Sequence record: PZ386953.1
DNA from: a phage
Length of the DNA: 64,000 bases
Direction: 5' to 3' (one strand)
Shown: positions 26,749 through 41,120 of the stretch, in pieces
How positions within the stretch are numbered: the first letter of the stretch is position 1
How the letters are laid out: the number at the start of each line of letters is the position of its first letter
Program-made: the position numbers and the translations under genes
Notes under the pieces: model-generated
Database searches by the model: none
What the model saw: only the letters and a program-made list of their open reading frames with translations
Told to the model about the DNA's origin: nothing

Positions 26749-28074
26749 ATGAGTAAAACCAAATTAGAACTAACCTGGATAGGTAAAAACGAGCGCAAAA
26801 AGTTAGAGCCGCACATTTTGTTAGAAGATTCTAGCAAGTCTTACCACAGCCAGAAAGTGACTGAAAACGATATTTTTGATAATAAACTGATTTTTGGAGA
26901 TAACTTATTAGCATTGAAGGCGCTAGAGCAAGAGTATGCAGGCAAAGTGAAGTGTGTTTACATAGACCCACCATTCAATACTGGAAGGGCTTTTGAGCAC
27001 TACGATGATAGCCTTGAGCATTCCATTTGGCTGGGCTTAATGAGGGATAGGTTAGAAATAATTCGTAATCTTCTAAGTGATGATGGGGTAATATTCGTTC
27101 ACTTAGATGATTGCGAAATGGCGTATTTAAAAGTTTTGATGGACGAGATTTTTGGTCGTGCAAATCAGTTAAATACCATATCGATGACCACAAATTCCCC
27201 TTCGGGATTTAAGGCAATAGGAGCCACAGTTTTCTCCACAGCAAACTTTTTGCTTGTATATGCAAAAGATCGCACCCAGAAACCGCTTAACAAAATCTAT
27301 ATACCTAAAGGGTATGATACAGGATATAACAAATACCTATTAAACCCGGATGACCATTATAAAAATTGGACGTGGTGCGGTATTGCCGATGCGTTTGCAA
27401 AGGCCAATGGCTATAAAGATGCAAAAGAGGCCAAGAAAAAACTGCCTGATACATTCGATGATGAATTAGCACAATTCGCAATTGATAATGCAGAACGTGT
27501 ATTTCAATCTGTTGCAATCGGCGGTGGTGCTAAAATAAAGAGAAAAGAAACTATCGAGAAGTCAAAGAAAGATAGGGATAAGGTTTATGTACATCCAAAT
27601 GAAGATGTTGAAGGATTTTATATCGTAAATGGTAGGCAAATGGTCTTTTACTCCAACAGGCTTTTGGAAATTGACGGTGATATGCAACCTGCGGAACTAA
27701 TAACTGATGTTTGGACAGACATTAGTTGGAATGGAATAGCAAATGAAGGCGGCGTTAGTTTCAAAAATGGGAAAAAACCAGAAGCGCTTTTGAAGCGAAT
27801 TTTCGAAATGTGTACGCGAGAAGGCGATTTGGTATTGGATTCATTCGGTGGTTCGGGAACTACTGCTGCTGTAGCTCACAAGATGAAAAGACGTTGGATC
27901 TCAATCGAGCTGGGTGATCATTGTCATACCCATATTATTCCGCGCTTGGAAAAAGTGATCGATGGTGAAGATCAAGGTGGTATTTCTAAGTCTGTAAACT
28001 GGCAAGGTGGTGGTGGCTTCAGTTATTACAAACTTGCCCCGACCTTAATTGCGAAAGATAAGTCTGATCAATAA
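26749..28074 (+). CDS. DNA methyltransferase (beta-class N6-adenine/N4-cytosine, type III Mod-like)
   Basis: Motif IV DPPF (VYIDPPFNT) N-terminal to motif I FxGxG (LDSFGGSGTT): circularly permuted beta-class order. Confidence 0.7.
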   Translation: MSKTKLELTWIGKNERKKLEPHILLEDSSKSYHSQKVTENDIFDNKLIFGDNLLALKALEQEYAGKVKCVYIDPPFNTGRAFEHYDDSLEHSIWLGLMRDRLEIIRNLLSDDGVIFVHLDDCEMAYLKVLMDEIFGRANQLNTISMTTNSPSGFKAIGATVFSTANFLLVYAKDRTQKPLNKIYIPKGYDTGYNKYLLNPDDHYKNWTWCGIADAFAKANGYKDAKEAKKKLPDTFDDELAQFAIDNAERVFQSVAIGGGAKIKRKETIEKSKKDRDKVYVHPNEDVEGFYIVNGRQMVFYSNRLLEIDGDMQPAELITDVWTDISWNGIANEGGVSFKNGKKPEALLKRIFEMCTREGDLVLDSFGGSGTTAAVAHKMKRRWISIELGDHCHTHIIPRLEKVIDGEDQGGISKSVNWQGGGGFSYYKLAPTLIAKDKSDQ

Positions 28075-29289: not shown

Positions 29290-29316
29290 GCCCTGCCCGA
29301 AAGGGTGGGGCTTTTT
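29290..29316 (+). terminator. intrinsic terminator (hairpin identical to the one at 39424)
   Basis: GCCCTGCCC-GAAA-GGGTGGGGC then TTTTT; two G-U wobbles make it strand-specific. Confidence 0.75.
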
Positions 29317-29334
29317 GCATTAGGAGACAGCAAA

Positions 29335-30099
29335 TTGAAATTTATCTATAAAGAACACTACCACAAAGGTGTTGTGTGGAGTCTATTTGACGGATCTGGC
29401 GGTGCAGTCATTGACTGGGCAAAAGCTGGATATCTGTGCCTGTGCTTTAACGCAGAAGGTGCTGACCACGGCAGTTATGCAGAGGTGATCACCGATCATC
29501 CCAACATTCACTATGTGGACTATTGGATTGACCCGTGGTTCCCTCAGGAAACTTTTTGCATGTATCCGGCTCCAGATTTTATTCTTGCATTTCCTCCGTG
29601 CACGCATTTAGCGGTATCAGGTGCTGCACATTTTAAGAAAAAGCTGGCTAAGGACCCCATGATCCAAATTAATGCTGTAAAGGATGCTCGGGTTGCGGAA
29701 GAGCTGGGAGAGATTTACGATTGCCCGTGGCATGTAGAGAATCCTGTGGGTGTTATGTCCACACTGTGGCGCAAACCTGATTACCGTTTTCACCCTTCGG
29801 ATTATGGCGGGTATTTACCGGAAGATGATGTAAACCCATGGTTTCCTGAATTTATAGCTCCACGTGATGCCTATCCAAAAATAACTTGCGGCTGGATAGG
29901 TAATGGATTTATAATCCCAGCCACAAAACCTGTCCCGCAAATAGTTGACGCGGTTAGCGGGTATTCCATGCAACACGCCAAGCTGGGTGGAAAGAGTGCA
30001 AGAACGAAGATGATTCGAAGCCTCACACCACGTGGCTGGGCAAAAGCCGTATTCCTAGCAAACGAGCCTGTAGTAAGGAGCAGAATTAATGGGAAGTAA
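29335..30099 (+). CDS. C5-cytosine methyltransferase-like protein (divergent, short)
   Basis: TTG start 7 nt after AGGAGA SD; motif I FDGSGG, motif IV-like FPPCTHLAVSG (Cys retained, Gln replaced by Thr), motif VI-like VENPVG; no obvious target-recognition domain. Confidence 0.45.
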   Translation: MKFIYKEHYHKGVVWSLFDGSGGAVIDWAKAGYLCLCFNAEGADHGSYAEVITDHPNIHYVDYWIDPWFPQETFCMYPAPDFILAFPPCTHLAVSGAAHFKKKLAKDPMIQINAVKDARVAEELGEIYDCPWHVENPVGVMSTLWRKPDYRFHPSDYGGYLPEDDVNPWFPEFIAPRDAYPKITCGWIGNGFIIPATKPVPQIVDAVSGYSMQHAKLGGKSARTKMIRSLTPRGWAKAVFLANEPVVRSRINGK

Positions 30100-32167
30100 A
30101 TTTATGGCATCTGCATACAACCGTTTCGGTGAGCCAAACCCGAAAGCAACTAAGTATAAAAGTGGGGGAAGTGTGAAACGAGACTATCGTGATGAAAAAG
30201 AAGTTGAAACTGTAGAGACTGTTTTAGAAAATACTAAAATTGTCCCTGTCCCACAACAAAATATCGGTCTGATGGCTGCACAATATTTTGGTGTGCGATC
30301 AGCATTGTCCCAAGAAGACGGTGTGACAGTCACTGCAACATATTTCCCATATTACGACCGCTACGGAAATCTGTCTGGTTTCAAAAAGCGTGACTGGACT
30401 ATTCCTAAAGAGCAAAGGGGCCATTTCTCCGTTGTTGGCATCGTAAAGGCCAACTCCCAGATGTTTGGTCAAAAGCTGTGTGCATCTTCCAACAACCGTA
30501 AGCAGATTAACGTTTGTGAGGGAGAAGGTGATGTTATTGCAGCATGGCAGGCTGCATATCAGATACAAGTAAAAGGGATTCTCACCAACGCTAAAGCCCC
30601 GGCAAAGGTGAAGCAGTGGGCTAAAGAGGTCCAGGACGGGATCGACGCAGTTATCAACGGTGGTGATCTGGCAGGAAAACCCTGCCTGCCTTTTGTTGGA
30701 ATTAACTGTGGATGTGCAAACGCAGTAGATACTTTTGCAAACAATGAGAAGTTTATCCGTAGCTATGGAACAGTTGTGCTGGCAATGGATAACGATGCAG
30801 CTAACGAGGTAGAGAAGCAAAAACACGTCATTAAAGGTGTTGAGGCCACGCACAATATCGCAGCATTTTTGATGGCTGATAACGTTTACCACGTAGAATA
30901 CCCTGGTGAAGTAAATGACCCTGACGGTGTAAAAGATATCCGAGACATGCTGAAGGCTAAAAAGCTGGAAGATATTGTCAACATGTTCCGGCACCCTGTT
31001 AAATATGTGCCTGATGCTGTGTCGGATTTAGAAGACTTCTCTATCGAGTCTTTGCGGAAAAAGACTTCCAACGGGGTAGATATCAGTGCAGAGTTCCCAA
31101 AACTGCAAAAAATGCTAAAAGGCTTGCACAAAGGGACACTTGTAATGCTTACAGGTCCATCAGGCGGCGGTAAAACAACCGTGGCTAAAAAACTGGAACA
31201 CTGTATTGCAAGATACCTAATGGACCCGACATGCCCGAAGGCCGATGACTATGAAGAGGATGATCGTCTATGCATGATTCATCTTGAGGAGGACCCAGAG
31301 GAAGCAATTAACTCCTTGTATGCAAACCAGTTAGGGTTTGATGTTAAAGAGTTTGTTGAAGATCCTAGCCAGTTTTTAACTGATCAAGAACACGCAGAGA
31401 TTCACCAATCATGGGCAAAAGCTGGAAAAATCAAAGTGTTCAAACATTTCGGGTCTATTCCAGTGGACGAGTTGATTACCAAGCTTAAGCAAATGGTTTG
31501 CCTGTACCATTGTCGTTATATTGTGCTGGATCACCTGTCCATGGTAATTTCAGGGCTTAATGTTAAGGATGAGCGAAAAGAACTGGACATGGCTATGACC
31601 CAACTGGCTGCGTTTTGTAAGCAGTTTAACGTGTTTATCTTGGTGATCGCTCACCTCAAACGTACAGAGATTGTGCCCCCTAAGGACAAGGATGGTAACC
31701 CATTACCTTTCTGGTATCCTGTGCGAAAAGAGAATTTGCGAGGATCGGCTGGGCTTGAACAGTTGAGTTGGGTAGTCATAGGTGTCGAGGCCGAAGAAAT
31801 GGTGGATCGTTCTCGTGGACGTGTCCGTCTGGTAGGTCTTAAAAACCGTCCAGCAAAAACTTTAGGTATTGCTGACACTTTAGTTATGGATCCGCATACA
31901 GGTAAGTTCCATGATGCCAGTAATTGGTACTGGGACAAAGAAATGCAGATGTTTACAGACGGAGAAGGTGGGGAGGTTGTTTGGAGACCTCAGGCTATGT
32001 TTGAGGATCAGGAGCATGCAGTTGTAGAAACACCTATGGGCAAGGTTGTGGCTGATAAGGTTGTAACACCCACTGTCAAGCCTATTGACACGCAGGAAGA
32101 CCTCCAATACGATGATCCATCCTCTGATCCGGTCCCTGGTTTTGAGGATGATGAAACACCTTTTTAA
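30089..32167 (+). CDS. primase-helicase (TOPRIM primase + SF4 DnaB-like helicase, T7 gp4-like)
   Basis: TOPRIM Glu (VCEGEGD) and DxD (LAMDNDAANE); Walker A LTGPSGGGKTT; Walker B IVLDHLSMV; acidic C-terminus ...FEDDETPF. Confidence 0.7.
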   Translation: MGSKFMASAYNRFGEPNPKATKYKSGGSVKRDYRDEKEVETVETVLENTKIVPVPQQNIGLMAAQYFGVRSALSQEDGVTVTATYFPYYDRYGNLSGFKKRDWTIPKEQRGHFSVVGIVKANSQMFGQKLCASSNNRKQINVCEGEGDVIAAWQAAYQIQVKGILTNAKAPAKVKQWAKEVQDGIDAVINGGDLAGKPCLPFVGINCGCANAVDTFANNEKFIRSYGTVVLAMDNDAANEVEKQKHVIKGVEATHNIAAFLMADNVYHVEYPGEVNDPDGVKDIRDMLKAKKLEDIVNMFRHPVKYVPDAVSDLEDFSIESLRKKTSNGVDISAEFPKLQKMLKGLHKGTLVMLTGPSGGGKTTVAKKLEHCIARYLMDPTCPKADDYEEDDRLCMIHLEEDPEEAINSLYANQLGFDVKEFVEDPSQFLTDQEHAEIHQSWAKAGKIKVFKHFGSIPVDELITKLKQMVCLYHCRYIVLDHLSMVISGLNVKDERKELDMAMTQLAAFCKQFNVFILVIAHLKRTEIVPPKDKDGNPLPFWYPVRKENLRGSAGLEQLSWVVIGVEAEEMVDRSRGRVRLVGLKNRPAKTLGIADTLVMDPHTGKFHDASNWYWDKEMQMFTDGEGGEVVWRPQAMFEDQEHAVVETPMGKVVADKVVTPTVKPIDTQEDLQYDDPSSDPVPGFEDDETPF

Positions 32168-32225: not shown

Positions 32226-35003
32226 ATGAGCATGTGGTCGTTCGACTTTGAGTCATCCGGTTTGCTGGAAGATCCAGATCTTTATTATCACTGCGGCCTG
32301 TTTAAAGAGCTGAATAAGAACCGTTTTATGCTGTTCCTTCCTCTAAATGACCGCACACACTACTCCGAAGAGGATATAGAGAAGGCTAAGAACTTTATTC
32401 TGGCAAAGAAAACTCTTCATAAAGATTTTGAAGTTCGCATAGCAGATTTTTCGGAGTTGGAAGGTTGGCTTACAGGCAATTCCGACTGGTCACCAACAGC
32501 TTTGAACTGCCATAACTGCTACAGTTATGACTTTATGCTGATGGAAAGATTATCCGGTATTCATTTTGATATGTTCCGTGATCCTAAATGCATGGGGACT
32601 ATCAACGACCACCAGGTTAACCTGTTTGATACGTTGGCGATGAGCAGAATCTTGTGGCCTGATCGCCCTTTACCAAAAGGTTGTCCGGACTCTGTATTCA
32701 ACCCGGTTACTAAGAAAATGCAGCCTGTTGGTCCTCACGGCCTTATGGCATGGGGCTACGCCCTTGGTAACCAGAAAGTTCAAATTGATGACTGGCGCGA
32801 TCTTCCGTTGTGGAAGTATGTGGATCGTGTATTCGAGGACGTTATCATCCAGGAGCTGCTCTGGAAAGAGCTGGTAGCGGAATCAAAAGGTGTATTCTAC
32901 GGCAAATCTGACATGCAGAACTTTATGTACGATCCAGCCAAAGAGAAGCCGAAAGGGTTCAAGAAAATCACCTGGAAGAACGCATTACGCCGAGGCATGC
33001 TGCAGCACTTCCTGATGGAGCTGCAGGCCCGTCAGGGTGTATACTTCGACATAGATGGAGCTATTGCTTTACGTGACCGTTGTGATGCGTGGATGAAAGA
33101 AATCGCTGATCGTGTTGAACCTCAACTTCCTTTAAAAGAGCTGTCAATGTCTCAGCGGCCCAAGTTCCCTGAAAAGCCGTTTAACCAAGATGGGACAATC
33201 TCCAACAATGGTTGGAAATGGTTAAAAGATAAGCTTGGCTATCCTGTGGACATGAGTGCTTTGGAGTTCAAAGCCCCGCCTAAGCGAGCATTTACCTCCA
33301 CAGGAGATGTCAGCAAGATGGGGATAAAATGGTGTGAAGAGATGGGCTGCAAAGACCCTGATAAGATGGCTGATTTCTTGAGAGGCTATATTAAGGGCAC
33401 TTCCACACCACAACCTTTACCTAAAGAGCTGATGGATCAGGCAATAAGTGATCTACAGCAGAAGCGAATGCCGGACTGCAAGATACCTATGAAAATCAGC
33501 AATCAGGACGACATTAAGCGATACCTGATCAGTGCTGGTTGGCTTCCGACAATGTGGAGAACTAAGGATGTAACTAAAGACAGCAAGAAGAAAGCTCTAC
33601 CTGATGCAGATGTTGATGCACGAGTATATGCATACATGGACGAGCTTTTAGAGTCAGAGTATTGTGACCTGATTATCAACTTCTGGAACAAAACTGATGC
33701 TAAGTTTCAGACAACCGTGCACAAGTTCCGAAGCTTTCCTAACTCCGAAAGGATTAAAAAGGAAGTATTCGGGAAAATACGTAGAAAAGCCAGAGCACTT
33801 ATTACTTCTCCGCAGCTGAAAGATACGTTTGGACACCTATGCCCAAATCTTGAAAAATTGAACGGAGAGATGGCTAAAGATATCGTCTTGTGGTTATCAT
33901 TGCGAAACCGCAGATCGGTCCTTGATCCAATCAAGGAGGATAAGGTTGATACTGGTCTTCTTAATCACCCACGTTTGAAGATTGACCATAAGCTTCCTGC
34001 TAAAAGTTCTGGATTAACAAACACTTCCCGACAGAAACACAGTATTTGTGCAAACATGCCTAAACCATCTCCTAAAGTGGTTATGGGTAAAGAGATGCGC
34101 AGTCTGTGGGGTGTTCCTCCAGGATACTTTGAGATCGGTATTGACGGGTCCAACTTAGAGCAGCTTATCGGGGCTTGGGGTGCCTTTGAGTTCGACAACG
34201 GCCTGTATTACGATGTTGTAAGTAACGGGGATGCCCACCAAAACAATGCTGAGGCATATACGAAAGTAGCAGGTAGAGAGGTGTCTCGTAACGACGGTAA
34301 ACCTATCACGTACGGGGTTATGTATGGGGCACAAAAAGATAAAGTTGCAGACATGCTGGATATCTCCCCAGAGTTGGGGCAAAGGGTAATCGATGCGCTT
34401 TGGGATGCCAACCCTGGTCTTAAAGGGCGTAAAGAGGATCTGGAGAAATTCTGGGAAGCAACGGGTAAGAAGTTTATCTACTCTTTTGATGGTCATGCTA
34501 TCTGGACCCGATCTAAACACTCTTTACTTAATGCATACCAACAAAATGGTGGTGCATCGTTGTGTGACTTAGTTGGGATACTCATGCACCACCAAATGGT
34601 GAAGCGTGGGTGGTACGATGAAGGTGTTCGTCGTATTATTTATTACCATGATGAGTACCAACTTCAGGTCCCTGACACGCCTAAGTATAAGACTGTGTAC
34701 ACCTTCGACACAATTGAAGAATTGGAAGCATTTAAGGCAGAGCAGGAGGCCAAACTTCATGTGTTTGACGGTCATAAGTACAAAAAGGCACGCAAGGATG
34801 AAAACGGAAACGAAGTGGTTGACAGAGACGGAAACACGGTGTACGATCCTATCCTGAACGATGACGGAAAGCTTGAACTTATCTGGAGCCCTGTGGGTGA
34901 AATGGTGGTGCATTGCTTCTGGCAAGCTTCTAAAATGATGGGCGTTCCATTCCAGATCACAGGTGAATACTTGTGTGGTCGGAACTGGGGTGATTGTCAC
35001 TAA
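32226..35003 (+). CDS. family A DNA polymerase with 3'-5' exonuclease domain
   Basis: Exo I FDFESSGL, Exo II NCYSYDF, pol motif B K..YGVMYG, motif C YYHDEYQL. Confidence 0.8.
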   Translation: MSMWSFDFESSGLLEDPDLYYHCGLFKELNKNRFMLFLPLNDRTHYSEEDIEKAKNFILAKKTLHKDFEVRIADFSELEGWLTGNSDWSPTALNCHNCYSYDFMLMERLSGIHFDMFRDPKCMGTINDHQVNLFDTLAMSRILWPDRPLPKGCPDSVFNPVTKKMQPVGPHGLMAWGYALGNQKVQIDDWRDLPLWKYVDRVFEDVIIQELLWKELVAESKGVFYGKSDMQNFMYDPAKEKPKGFKKITWKNALRRGMLQHFLMELQARQGVYFDIDGAIALRDRCDAWMKEIADRVEPQLPLKELSMSQRPKFPEKPFNQDGTISNNGWKWLKDKLGYPVDMSALEFKAPPKRAFTSTGDVSKMGIKWCEEMGCKDPDKMADFLRGYIKGTSTPQPLPKELMDQAISDLQQKRMPDCKIPMKISNQDDIKRYLISAGWLPTMWRTKDVTKDSKKKALPDADVDARVYAYMDELLESEYCDLIINFWNKTDAKFQTTVHKFRSFPNSERIKKEVFGKIRRKARALITSPQLKDTFGHLCPNLEKLNGEMAKDIVLWLSLRNRRSVLDPIKEDKVDTGLLNHPRLKIDHKLPAKSSGLTNTSRQKHSICANMPKPSPKVVMGKEMRSLWGVPPGYFEIGIDGSNLEQLIGAWGAFEFDNGLYYDVVSNGDAHQNNAEAYTKVAGREVSRNDGKPITYGVMYGAQKDKVADMLDISPELGQRVIDALWDANPGLKGRKEDLEKFWEATGKKFIYSFDGHAIWTRSKHSLLNAYQQNGGASLCDLVGILMHHQMVKRGWYDEGVRRIIYYHDEYQLQVPDTPKYKTVYTFDTIEELEAFKAEQEAKLHVFDGHKYKKARKDENGNEVVDRDGNTVYDPILNDDGKLELIWSPVGEMVVHCFWQASKMMGVPFQITGEYLCGRNWGDCH

Positions 35004-37816: not shown

Positions 37817-38182
37817 ATGGAACAAATGAACGATCAAGCGTCGGTTGCGATGAACGAGCAAGAACAACCTCAAGAATTTTTCTTAGGGTTAAGTAAAGAT
37901 CAAGTGTCTCTTCTACTAGTGCTTTCTTCTTTCATGGGAAGACTTCAGGAGCTCACACAACAACCAGAGGCTGAACAATTATTTCAAGCTCTGCGTGAAG
38001 AAGAAAAATATCGTCGTTTGGACTATGCCTTAGGTTGGGTAGCTCAACAACGAGATATGCTGATGGCCCTCTCTGGGACCACAAGTTTTGCAATGGGGCT
38101 GTTGGCTCAAGTTCAGGACAAATTAATTCAAGCAGGGTTTGCACACACGGCAAACACTAACGAAGAACAAGGAGACAAATAA
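37817..38182 (+). CDS. hypothetical protein
   Basis: 121-aa ORF, SD CGGAGA. Confidence 0.45.
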   Translation: MEQMNDQASVAMNEQEQPQEFFLGLSKDQVSLLLVLSSFMGRLQELTQQPEAEQLFQALREEEKYRRLDYALGWVAQQRDMLMALSGTTSFAMGLLAQVQDKLIQAGFAHTANTNEEQGDK

Positions 38183-39408
38183 TGAGCGTTATTCAACAAT
38201 TCGCTAACCCGATGAATCCGCGTGAAACTGTTTTACTGGCTCACGGCATGATTAAACGTGTCAGCATCAAGCCTATCAAAGGTGCTGATCCTACAACAGG
38301 TATTAAAACCACTGTGTGGCAAGGTAAGAAAATTGAATCCAGCCACACCATCTCTTTACTGATTTCTGAACTGGATTCCTCTGATAACCTGCTTCAAGGT
38401 GGTGAAGAAGTTTGGATCAGCATGGGTGATAAGCTGCTTAAACCTGGTCATCAAGACTCTGTCTCTGTTAAAATTGATGACAAGTGGGAAACCGTAACGC
38501 CGGGATGGATCGTAAATATTCCTTTGAAGGCAAACGAGCATAACGGTAAGACCTATTACAAAGGCTCACTGGCTAAGATGGTCAAGCTGGGTGCAGGAGA
38601 GGCTCCAGCAGCGACTCAGCAGCAAAAACAGCAACAAGGTGCACAATCACAAGGCCAGAAGCAGAAACCTCAGCAGAATGCCAATCAGGACGTTTTACGC
38701 ATCTATGGTGATGTGACTCAGATTGTTGGCAACGTGGTTACTGTTAATGACCACAAGATTGGCGAAGGTGCTATGGTTGTAACTGATGAGCAGCTTAAAG
38801 ACCTGGTGGTAGGTGGTCGTGTTGCAGCCATTGTTGACAAAGACACCGGAAACATTATCAGTGGTTTCAAGGCCTATCCTCCTAAGGCAGAGAACGGCAC
38901 TCAAGGCTCTGGTGGCAAGCGTAAATCCTCTTACGACCCTATCGGTGTGGAAACGGGGCATAGCATCAATGCGTTGCAGATCATCCTGGATCGCGGGTTT
39001 AAGGTAGACGACCCACTGGGCGTGGCTAAAACACTGCACGTAGTCACCATTGAGCTTAAGAAAGAGTATGCTCAAGCCACCAACCGAACTGAAGATGAAG
39101 TAGGTGCCAGTGTCGGTAATGCGGTGTTGAACGCTTGTCGCCGTATTGACAAGAAAACGAAAGTTGATGATTTTGCAGTGGCAATTACTGCAGAAGCAAA
39201 AGATGTCTTGACTAATCTAGCTGAGCCGTTGTACGATTGGATCAAGAACGGTGCTGAGTCCACTGACCATCAAGAACCTCAGGCTGCCAAACAGGAAGCA
39301 GCTCCACAGCAAAACACTGTAGACGCTCCTCCTGTAAATGATGCGGAAGATGACCCAATGGATCAGAATCCAGCACAGTACGTCTTTGATGATGACATCC
39401 CATTTTAA
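38182..39408 (+). CDS. ssb: single-stranded DNA-binding protein-like (SSB C-terminal tail)
   Basis: C-terminus ...VFDDDIPF matches the conserved acidic SSB-Ct tip (DDDIPF); Gln/Gly-rich linker precedes it; follows polymerase and primase-helicase. Confidence 0.55.
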   Translation: MSVIQQFANPMNPRETVLLAHGMIKRVSIKPIKGADPTTGIKTTVWQGKKIESSHTISLLISELDSSDNLLQGGEEVWISMGDKLLKPGHQDSVSVKIDDKWETVTPGWIVNIPLKANEHNGKTYYKGSLAKMVKLGAGEAPAATQQQKQQQGAQSQGQKQKPQQNANQDVLRIYGDVTQIVGNVVTVNDHKIGEGAMVVTDEQLKDLVVGGRVAAIVDKDTGNIISGFKAYPPKAENGTQGSGGKRKSSYDPIGVETGHSINALQIILDRGFKVDDPLGVAKTLHVVTIELKKEYAQATNRTEDEVGASVGNAVLNACRRIDKKTKVDDFAVAITAEAKDVLTNLAEPLYDWIKNGAESTDHQEPQAAKQEAAPQQNTVDAPPVNDAEDDPMDQNPAQYVFDDDIPF

Positions 39409-39423
39409 CATTTAGTTAACATA

Positions 39424-39451
39424 GCCCTGCCCGAAAGGGTGGGGCATTTTT
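39424..39451 (+). terminator. intrinsic terminator (same hairpin as 29290)
   Basis: GCCCTGCCC-GAAA-GGGTGGGGC then ATTTTTG. Confidence 0.75.
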
Positions 39452-39470
39452 GTATAAGGAGATCTAAAAA

Positions 39471-40246: not shown

Positions 40247-40672
40247 ATGATCTATGAAATGCCAAAACTGATTCGTGACGATGCCCAAAACGCCCACACC
40301 TTTATCATGGGCAAGCGCATGGATATTATTTGTCATAAAGATTTCTGGGAAGGTAGTTACTTCACAGAATATTTTGGTAAACTGGATAATGGTCTGCTGA
40401 TCCAGTTCTACACCGATGCGGAAAACAATATCTGCTGGGAGTTCGAAACTGAAGATATCCATAAACTTTTCACCTTCCTAGGTATTAAGGTTGAGGCCAA
40501 GTTTGAAGAAGGCGAGTGCGACGATTGTGGATTCTACGAGGTAACAGATTTCTATCTCCCAAGTGGTGAGAACCTTTACTATGAAAGCCACTTCGGCAAC
40601 TCAAATATGCCACAAGGTTGGGATGAGTTTTTTGAAATTGCGGAAGAGGAGCTGACATACCGTGATTATTGA
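40247..40672 (+). CDS. hypothetical protein
   Basis: 141-aa ORF. Confidence 0.45.
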   Translation: MIYEMPKLIRDDAQNAHTFIMGKRMDIICHKDFWEGSYFTEYFGKLDNGLLIQFYTDAENNICWEFETEDIHKLFTFLGIKVEAKFEEGECDDCGFYEVTDFYLPSGENLYYESHFGNSNMPQGWDEFFEIAEEELTYRDY

Positions 40673-41120
40673 TACTGTAGCGGGAGATTTAATCTCCCTT
40701 TTTAAGAGCGGTGCTGGTCACCTGATCCACGGTTGTAACTGCTTTCATACAATGGGTGCAGGCATAGCGAAAGATATTGCCCGTGAGTTCCCTCAAGCAC
40801 TGGCAGCCGACAAAGAGACTGCCTATGGTAATCTGGACAAGCTGGGTATGTTTTCTTGTTGGGAGCATTTTGCCAAGAACAGGGTCGTATATGGAATCAA
40901 CCTGTATACCCAGTTCTACCCAGGGCCCAATGCTGAATACTTCTCAATAATGAAAGGTTTTGAGCGAGTCAACGAGGTATTCAAAGGTGTGTCATTGCCG
41001 TTCTACATTCCTAAAATTGGATGCGGTATTGGCGGTCTAAAGTGGGAACATGTAGAAGATGTAATTAATCTTGCAACCACAGATATTGATGTGGTTGTAG
41101 TAGAGTACAAAAAGTGTTGA
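40662..41120 (+). CDS. macro domain protein (DarG/TARG1-like ADP-ribosyl hydrolase fold)
   Basis: GTG start; LIHGCNCFHTMGAGIAKDIAREFP matches the NC..MG.GIA...FP signature of DarG/TARG1-type macro domains; C-terminal GCGIGG glycine motif. Confidence 0.55.
   Translation: MIIDTVAGDLISLFKSGAGHLIHGCNCFHTMGAGIAKDIAREFPQALAADKETAYGNLDKLGMFSCWEHFAKNRVVYGINLYTQFYPGPNAEYFSIMKGFERVNEVFKGVSLPFYIPKIGCGIGGLKWEHVEDVINLATTDIDVVVVEYKKC

What the first reader, a model, noticed from the sequence alone, without database searches (positions are those of the whole stretch)
38182..39408. SSB-Ct-like acidic tails ending in Phe on both the SSB-like protein and the primase-helicase
Seen: 38182-39408 ends VFDDDIPF and 30089-32167 ends GFEDDETPF. 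Established: the DDDIPF tip of bacterial SSB is the docking motif for SSB-interacting proteins, and in T7 both gp2.5 and gp4 carry acidic C-terminal tails ending in Phe that contact the polymerase. Inference: a T7-type replisome built on tail-mediated contacts; the 408-aa protein shows no obvious match to bacterial SSB outside the tail and has a long Gln-rich linker, so it may also compete for the host SSB interactome.
Basis: partly seen in the sequence, partly recalled or inferred. Interest (0 to 1): 0.45.

Follow-up and report, generated by a model that had tools for sequence, protein, structure and literature searches.

The report
Phage SSB-like protein with host-type tail
An rV5-like E. 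coli phage gives both its single-stranded-DNA-binding protein and its T7-type primase-helicase acidic tails ending in Pro-Phe, and the SSB-like tail copies the docking tip of the host SSB; a 2026 preprint already reported the SSB-like part for a 99%-identical protein.

Summary
ORF 38182-39408 ends VFDDDIPF and the primase-helicase (30089-32167) ends GFEDDETPF. They are the only 2 of 259 ORFs in the window with such an ending.

The window is a Vequintavirus (99.9% identical to phage Murica). The 408-aa protein is predicted to have two OB folds, a four-helix domain and a disordered acidic tail. It has no sequence relationship to bacterial SSB outside the tip, and I found no other SSB in the genome.

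Its neighbours are homologs of T7 gp4 and T7 gp5. Both tails are family hallmarks: 84 of 118 SSB-like representatives and 112 of 120 helicase homologs end in a free acidic ...PF.

The SSB-like part is not new. A bioRxiv preprint of April 2026 describes Bas52_0087, 99% identical, as an SSB-like trigger of the DRT10 defence system with an FDDDIPF tip. The conserved helicase tail is not in that paper.

I also found something unreported. A recurrent 15-aa "cap" (AP[IV]GLQYG...) follows the terminal Phe in many phage SSBs, SSB-like proteins (including rV5 gp209) and primase-helicases. It sometimes sits beside a homing-endonuclease gene. Tail contacts with the polymerase or with host proteins remain inferred.

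The parts
38182..39408 (+). Gene for the 408-aa SSB-like protein. It belongs to PHROG 4477 and is the ortholog of Bas52_0087 and rV5 gp209.
   Evidence: PHROG 4477 at E=7.5e-173. 403/408 residues identical to Bas52_0087.
38182..38595 (+). OB fold 1 (aa 1-138), the presumed ssDNA-binding domain. Net charge +3, 7 aromatic residues.
38596..38691 (+). Gln-rich disordered linker (aa 139-170).
   Evidence: pLDDT 25-35. Length varies between homologs.
38692..38877 (+). Small second beta-barrel (aa 171-232) with the OB topology b1-b2-b3-helix-b4-b5. It is absent from the short (~270-300 aa) family members.
   Evidence: Secondary structure. Alignment gaps in P0052-P0056. The preprint calls it OB-fold-2.
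38938..39246 (+). Family-specific four-helix domain (aa 253-355) and the most conserved part of the protein (invariant G255, G259, H260, N263, G312, L316). The DRT10 escape substitutions D252V and Y351C map to its edges.
39247..39405 (+). Disordered acidic C-terminal tail (aa 356-408, net charge -12).
   Evidence: pLDDT below 50. Charge.
39382..39405 (+). C-terminal tip VFDDDIPF, identical in its last 7 residues to the tip of the host-type SSB.
   Evidence: Canonical phage SSBs carry ...PPMDFDDDIPF. The preprint makes the same comparison with E. coli SSB.
39424..39455 (+). Intrinsic-terminator-like hairpin and T-run directly after the stop codon. In relatives, the cap and the homing-endonuclease gene sit exactly between the Phe codon and the stop.
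   Evidence: Junction alignment.
37817..38182 (+). Upstream 121-aa ORF whose stop overlaps the SSB-like start (ATGA). It is co-conserved with the SSB-like gene; function unknown (PHROG 7310).
   Evidence: Found directly upstream in loci L001-L018, at 23-100% identity.
30089..32167 (+). Primase-helicase homologous to T7 gp4, with a DnaB_C domain at aa 331-589.
   Evidence: Pfam DnaB_C and AAA_25. PHROG 239 'DNA primase/helicase' at E=6e-160. PDB T7 gp4 6n7i at E=4e-16, and Twinkle.
32138..32164 (+). Primase-helicase C-terminal tip GFEDDETPF.
   Evidence: An acidic ...[TSE]PF ending occurs in 112 of 120 homologs.
32226..35003 (+). Family-A DNA polymerase, homologous to T7 gp5 and the candidate partner for the tails. 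K748/K749 (nt 34467-34472) align with T7 R590/R591 of the front basic patch.
   Evidence: The only PDB hits are T7 gp5, at E=7e-16. Conservation of TGK[KRQT] in relatives.

Best explanation
The 408-aa protein is most likely the phage's own ssDNA-binding protein and works within a T7-type replisome made of a gp4-like primase-helicase and a gp5-like polymerase.

Shown or predicted here: an N-terminal OB fold, a second small OB-like barrel, a family-specific four-helix domain, flexible Gln/Pro-rich linkers, and a disordered acidic tail whose last residues (FDDDIPF) copy the tip of the host SSB.

Inferred:
- The OB fold(s) coat ssDNA.
- The helical domain mediates self-association or partner binding.
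- The tail is a docking peptide that inserts its terminal Pro-Phe into a pocket beside a basic surface.
- Two sets of partners are likely and need not exclude each other. One is the phage polymerase, as for T7 gp2.5 and gp4; the related helicase tail FEDDETPF would use the same site. The other is host proteins that read the SSB tip, such as ExoI/SbcB, RecQ, PriA and chi.
- The exact host-type sequence, rather than merely 'acidic plus Phe', points to the host partners. Published genetics link this protein to ExoI and to the DRT10 defence system.
For: - No other SSB was found. None is annotated in the Bas52 regions examined (1-50 kb and 62-130 kb of 137 kb), and tblastn with canonical SSBs finds only this tail.
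- The gene lies in the replication module, 3.2 kb downstream of the polymerase.
- The helicase and polymerase are homologs of T7 gp4 and gp5.
- The tail is conserved across the family, with 84 of 118 representatives ending in a free acidic PF. The helicase tail is conserved in 112 of 120 homologs.
- The same 15-aa cap is appended after PF on both protein families. This suggests evolution treats the two tails as the same kind of element.
- Genetics on the 99%-identical Bas52_0087: DRT10 escape mutants D252V and Y351C; wild-type protein supplied in trans enhances restriction; SbcB overexpression weakens restriction.
- T7 precedent: the gp5 front basic patch anchors the gp2.5 tail, and PDB 6P7E contains the gp4 tail peptide DTDF (PMC12339929).
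Against: - No ssDNA binding or partner binding has been measured for any member of this family.
- Only 2 of the 6 basic positions of the T7 patch align with basic residues in this polymerase. That segment is conserved in family-A polymerases anyway.
- Capped alleles are common in viable isolates, including rV5 and three BASEL phages. A free terminal Phe is therefore dispensable for plaque formation, unless the cap is processed.
- Expressing Bas52_0087 alone is neither toxic nor sufficient to trigger DRT10. This argues against strong titration of host SSB partners.
- More distant relatives keep the SSB-like tail, yet their DnaB-like helicases end in non-acidic ...GSY or ...MKF. The helicase tail is therefore not universal.
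Confidence: 0.7

Rival explanations
1. The protein is mainly a host-takeover or counter-defence factor, not the replicative SSB. It would use an SSB-tip mimic to sequester or redirect host ExoI, RecQ, PriA and similar proteins, or to protect phage recombination intermediates, while the host SSB serves phage replication.
For: The tip is exactly the host sequence, and relatives carry PPMDFDDDIPF. There is a genetic link to SbcB/ExoI and DRT10. The protein has an extra helical domain with invariant polar residues that no known SSB has. Canonical phage SSBs with the same tip sit in recombination modules.
Against: The gene sits in the replication module next to gp4- and gp5-like genes. The family is conserved across more than 200 large virulent phages with no other SSB detected. 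Expression alone is not toxic. Capped alleles would disable such mimicry, yet they are frequent.
Confidence: 0.2
2. The tails act mainly within their own protein. The acidic tail would occupy the DNA-binding groove as a DNA mimic and tune ssDNA affinity, as described for T7 gp2.5 and E. coli SSB. The terminal Pro-Phe would be conserved for that self-contact, not for partner docking.
For: The tail has net charge -12 and the OB domain +3. Precedents come from my own knowledge of gp2.5 and SSB. Tolerance of a cap after the Phe fits a contact that does not need the free carboxylate.
Against: The primase-helicase has no SSB-type groove, yet it carries the same tail in 112 of 120 homologs. Conservation of the exact DDDIPF sequence goes beyond what charge mimicry needs.
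Confidence: 0.07
3. The shared endings are a coincidence of composition or an annotation artefact.
For: None found.
Against: Only 2 of 259 ORFs have this ending. It is conserved down to 30-40% identity in two unrelated protein families. Clean stop codons are followed by a terminator.
Confidence: 0.01

Closest known systems
Bas52_0087 of Escherichia phage RudolfGeigy (bioRxiv 10.64898/2026.04.29.721553)
   Same: It is the same protein: 403/408 residues identical, in the same genomic position. The preprint predicts two OB folds, a four-helix bundle and a disordered tail with an FDDDIPF C-tip. It proposes interplay with SbcB/ExoI.
   Different: The preprint reports only genetics (DRT10 escape and trans-complementation) and structure prediction, with no biochemistry. 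It does not mention the primase-helicase tail, the T7 relationship of the replisome, the wider family, or the capped alleles.
Bacteriophage T7 gp2.5 / gp4 / gp5 replisome
   Same: The helicase and polymerase here are homologs of gp4 and gp5. In both systems the SSB and the primase-helicase carry acidic C-terminal tails ending in Phe. In T7 these tails bind basic patches on gp5 (PMC12339929).
   Different: The SSB-like protein has no sequence match to gp2.5 and only weak fold-level hits to gp2.5/Enc34-type families. It is larger, with a second barrel and a helical domain. The tips are ...IPF and ...TPF (host-SSB-like) rather than T7's ...DF. The T7 basic patch is only partly retained. A thioredoxin-type processivity factor was not examined.
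Bacterial SSB (E. coli SSB, Pfam PF00436) and canonical phage or prophage SSBs
   Same: OB fold, Gly/Gln/Pro-rich disordered linker, and an identical C-terminal tip DFDDDIPF.
   Different: No detectable sequence or profile homology in the OB domain. The domain architecture differs. The oligomeric state is unknown.

Membership tests
PHROG 4477 / Bas52_0087 orthologous group | Full-length sequence match | tested here: met
   E=7.5e-173 over residues 1-408. 99% identity to Bas52_0087.
Bacterial SSB family (PF00436) | Sequence or profile match of the OB domain | tested here: not met
   No Pfam hit at E<=0.01 or E<=10. hhalign probability 0.2%. No PDB sequence hit.
Bacterial SSB family (PF00436) | OB fold of the ssDNA-binding type | tested here: met
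Bacterial SSB family (PF00436) | Disordered linker followed by the acidic tip ...DDDIPF at the very C-terminus | tested here: met
   Conserved family-wide.
Bacterial SSB family (PF00436) | ssDNA binding and homotetramer formation | not testable with these tools
   This needs EMSA or fluorescence titration, plus SEC-MALS.
T7 gp2.5 / Enc34-type phage SSB (DUF2815-like) | Sequence or profile match | tested here: not met
   No Pfam hit, even at relaxed thresholds.
T7 gp2.5 / Enc34-type phage SSB (DUF2815-like) | Fold similarity | tested here: inconclusive
   Foldseek against BFVD gives weak hits to DUF2815, 'phage ssDNA-binding domain' and 'DNA helix destabilizing protein' (E 4e-3 to 7e-2).
T7-type replisome | gp4-like hexameric helicase fused to a primase region | tested here: met
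   The helicase domain matches T7 gp4 at E=4e-16. PHROG 239 'DNA primase/helicase' covers residues 18-677. The primase (Toprim) part was not confirmed by Pfam.
T7-type replisome | gp5-like family-A DNA polymerase | tested here: met
   The only PDB sequence hits are T7 gp5, at E=7e-16.
T7-type replisome | Acidic C-terminal tails ending in Phe on both the SSB and the primase-helicase | tested here: met
T7-type replisome | Tails bind a basic patch on the polymerase | tested here: inconclusive
   K748/K749 align with T7 R590/R591. K587 and K589 lie in a T7-specific insertion. K594 and R599 are Y and H here, though relatives have DGRK. Binding itself cannot be tested with these tools.

The most novel reading that the evidence does not exclude
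Phages may have a so far undescribed 'capped' form of the SSB C-terminal tip. A conserved 15-aa peptide (AP[IV]GLQY[GA]xxx[IL][YH]x[LIF]) is fused directly after the terminal Phe. It occurs on canonical SSBs, on this SSB-like family and on primase-helicases, in unrelated phages of Escherichia, Klebsiella, Salmonella and Vibrio. It could work as a switch: by burying the Phe carboxylate it would shut off host SSB partners, or defence systems that sense or depend on the tip, while phage-internal contacts remain. In Vequintavirus the cap travels with a homing-endonuclease gene inserted exactly at the stop codon, so a selfish element could toggle the state.
Probability: 0.3. Interest if true: 0.7.

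Novelty: new member of a known kind. Interest (0 to 1): 0.4.

Why it matters
This protein family is annotated 'hypothetical' in almost all of about 240 phage genomes. Identifying it as the SSB of a T7-type replisome fills a gap in the replication module of a large group of therapeutic-candidate phages: the rV5-like and phi92-like phages and their relatives on Klebsiella and Salmonella.

The host-identical tip gives a concrete, testable route by which these phages could tap or disturb the host SSB interactome. It also explains why a defence system tied to ExoI (DRT10) responds to this protein.

The natural polymorphism between free and capped tails among near-identical isolates offers ready-made isogenic material. 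It could be used to test how much the free terminal Phe matters for replication and for immune sensing.

Tried and rejected
- PDB sequence searches with the SSB-like protein and with a profile of its helical domain gave only chance hits.
- Pfam at relaxed thresholds on 16 N-terminal domains found nothing.
- A profile-profile comparison with canonical SSB OB domains found nothing.
- I first read the post-Phe extension as a mere scar of homing-endonuclease insertion. I rejected that as the whole explanation. The same peptide occurs with no endonuclease gene nearby in L022 (a 149,506-bp contig, the same length as phi92-like phage PD211, whose relatives also gave cap hits), in Mydovirus helicases, and in the canonical SSBs of BUCT618, HK75 and Vibrio phage BT-1011. 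Its codons also differ synonymously between lineages.
- An apparent cap on a ribonucleotide reductase beta subunit was a mis-annotated helicase gene.
- Read-through of the window's own stop codon does not produce the cap.
- Text searches for the cap peptide in the literature found nothing relevant.
- I looked for per-phage DRT10 data to correlate with cap status. Only figure legends, primers and plasmid tables are held.
- The attempt to find the T7 basic patch in this polymerase was inconclusive.

Full report
**Observation.** The two ORFs and their endings are exactly as described. ORF 38182-39408 encodes 408 aa ending ...YVFDDDIPF. ORF 30089-32167 encodes 692 aa ending ...GFEDDETPF. Of the 259 six-frame ORFs of at least 60 aa in the window, only these two end in PF, and both have at least 3 acidic residues in the last 8. 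The gene's TAA stop is followed by a hairpin and T-run terminator.

**Context.** The window is a Vequintavirus (rV5-like myovirus). The 9.5-kb replication region is 99.9% identical to Escherichia phage Murica, and 126 phage records match it. Nearly all records call the 408-aa protein 'hypothetical'; one record calls it a putative SSB. It belongs to PHROG 4477, of unknown function, and has no Pfam hit.

**What the protein is.**
- An AlphaFold2 model built on 34 homologs shows five parts:
  - a confident all-beta domain (aa 1-138);
  - a disordered Gln-rich linker;
  - a small barrel with OB topology (aa 171-232);
  - a confident four-helix domain (aa 253-355);
  - a disordered tail with net charge -12.
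- A viral fold library returns family members, then weak hits to phage ssDNA-binding families.
- There is no sequence-level link to bacterial SSB: hhalign probability is 0.2%, and relaxed Pfam thresholds find nothing.
- The helical domain, modelled alone at pLDDT 91.7, has no informative structural relative.
- No other SSB is annotated in the parts of the Bas52 genome I examined, and none is detectable there or in the window.

**The replisome is T7-type.** By sequence, the helicase's closest solved relatives are T7 gp4 (E=4e-16) and Twinkle. The polymerase's only solved relatives are T7 gp5 (E=7e-16). In T7, the gp5 front basic patch (K587, K589, R590, R591, plus K594 and R599) anchors the acidic tail of gp2.5, and PDB 6P7E holds the gp4 tail peptide (PMC12339929). 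In this polymerase only K748/K749 align with R590/R591, and relatives keep TGK[KRQT]...DGRK. This is suggestive, not decisive.

**Tail conservation.**
- The D[FW]DDD[IV]PF tip is retained in homologs down to about 30% identity. This includes short forms of about 270-300 aa that lack the second barrel.
- A profile of the N-terminal domain, searched against 1.84 billion proteins, found 118 representatives. Of these, 84 end in a free acidic ...PF. Most of the rest are fragments, spurious long proteins, one-residue extensions (IPFN or IPFS) or capped forms.
- The helicase tail (acidic ...[TSE]PF) occurs in 112 of 120 homologs, down to about 42% identity and including Vibrio phages.
- More distant DnaB-like helicases (about 21% identity) in phages that still have the SSB-like family end in non-acidic ...GSY or ...MKF.

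**Prior art.** A bioRxiv preprint (10.64898/2026.04.29.721553, 30 April 2026) studies Bas52_0087, which is 403/408 identical to the window protein.
- Phages escaping the DRT10 reverse-transcriptase defence carry D252V or Y351C.
- Wild-type protein supplied in trans enhances restriction. Expression alone is neither toxic nor sufficient to trigger the system.
- SbcB (ExoI) overexpression weakens the defence.
- The authors predict two OB folds, a four-helix bundle and an FDDDIPF C-tip like that of E. coli SSB, and they suggest competition with SbcB.
- They do not mention the helicase tail, the polymerase or homing endonucleases.

**An unexpected polymorphism: the cap.**
- Some alleles continue 15-16 residues past the Phe, for example rV5 gp209...DFCDDIPF-APVGLQYGKSRIHAL.
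- In Vequintavirus this comes with a 0.6-kb insert placed exactly between the Phe codon and the stop. The insert carries an endonuclease VII/HNH-type gene.
- 32 phage records have the cap plus the endonuclease gene. About 23 have the endonuclease gene after a normal IPF-stop. The rest, like the window, have neither.
- The peptide is not just an insertion scar. It follows the tip with no endonuclease gene nearby in:
  - an SSB-like protein of the short form, L022, on a contig the same length as phi92-like phage PD211; phi92 and its relatives also gave cap hits;
  - the canonical SSBs of BUCT618, HK75 and Vibrio phage BT-1011;
  - the primase-helicase of Klebsiella phage KpS8.
- Another capped helicase is followed by an HNH_3 gene, from a different endonuclease family.
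- Codons of AP[VI]GLQY differ synonymously between lineages. This points to selection on the peptide.
- A tblastn search found the peptide in 230 phage records, always after PF-type tails. An apparent NrdB case was a mis-annotated helicase.
- I found no literature on it.

**What the cap means for the finding.** First, the same module attaches to both the SSB-like tail and the helicase tail. This independently suggests the two tails are the same kind of functional element. Second, to my knowledge host SSB partners bind the free carboxylate of the terminal Phe. Capped alleles in viable lab phages therefore show that host-partner docking through a free Phe is not essential for growth, unless the cap is removed or has its own function.

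**Verdict.** The protein is best read as the SSB of a T7-type replisome, with a host-identical docking tip, and the helicase carries a related conserved tail. This makes it a new member of a known kind. A 2026 preprint already describes the SSB-like part, while the helicase tail and the cap are additions. Whether the tails contact the phage polymerase, host proteins or both remains untested.

Noticed in passing
Relatives of window 39403-39408 (the Phe codon/stop junction): L003:4228-4272, L035 (rV5 gp209), L011, L004, L014, L022. Canonical SSBs in L032, L033, L034. Helicases in L031 and L040.: A conserved 15-aa peptide (AP[IV]GLQY[GA]xxx[IL][YH]x[LIF]) is fused after the terminal Phe of SSB-type tails. 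It occurs on SSB-like proteins, canonical phage SSBs and primase-helicases, in 230 phage records. The window itself has the uncapped allele. I found no literature on it.
   Followed up: partly
L003:4244-4867, L035:1665-2288 (rV5 gp208), L036:1543-2121. The insertion point corresponds to window 39405/39406.: A free-standing endonuclease VII/HNH-type homing-endonuclease gene (phrog_1035, E=6e-40) is inserted exactly at the stop codon of the SSB-like gene. It is present in about 55 Vequintavirus records, in two 5' variants: one adds the cap and one does not. It is absent from the window.
   Followed up: partly
window 37817-38182 (+): A 121-aa ORF (PHROG 7310, function unknown) overlaps the SSB-like start codon (ATGA). 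It is co-conserved directly upstream across the family down to about 23% identity. One GenBank record labels it 'putative SSB'. It could be a partner subunit.
   Followed up: partly
window 38938-39246 (aa 253-355 of the SSB-like protein): The four-helix domain has invariant or near-invariant polar residues (D252, H260, N263, H286, T289, K293, N317, C319, R320). That pattern looks more like a functional site than a simple oligomerisation surface. There is no structural relative in the PDB.
   Followed up: partly
Helicase homologs P0062-P0064 and P0103-P0151 (974-1025 aa, against 692 aa here). Polymerase in L001 (split CDS), L016 (1253 aa) and L030 (joined CDS).: Many relatives have helicase genes about 300 aa longer, and polymerase genes that are interrupted or enlarged. 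These are probably inteins, introns or homing-endonuclease insertions in the replication genes. The window's copies are uninterrupted.
   Followed up: no
Phage records MG0656xx ('Campylobacter phage' C12, C5, C15, A12a and others): Sixteen records labelled as Campylobacter jejuni phages are 97-99% identical to E. coli rV5-like phages across the replication region. The host labels are probably wrong, or the records are contaminants.
   Followed up: no
L038:30822-31910 (-) (Bas52 NrdB). Also OY978796.1 around 36.7-37.8 kb (L039).: The phage's class I ribonucleotide reductase beta subunit also ends in an acidic aromatic tail (...NDAEEEIWEF), as expected for docking to the alpha subunit. Separately, record OY978796 annotates the primase-helicase 3' end as 'ribonucleoside diphosphate reductase small subunit', which looks like shifted annotation.
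   Followed up: yes
window 40662-41120 (+), 29305-30099 (+), 26749-28074 (+): Near the replication module there is a Macro-domain protein (PHROG 335 'phosphatase'), a Dcm-like cytosine methyltransferase, and what is probably an N6-adenine methyltransferase.
   Followed up: no
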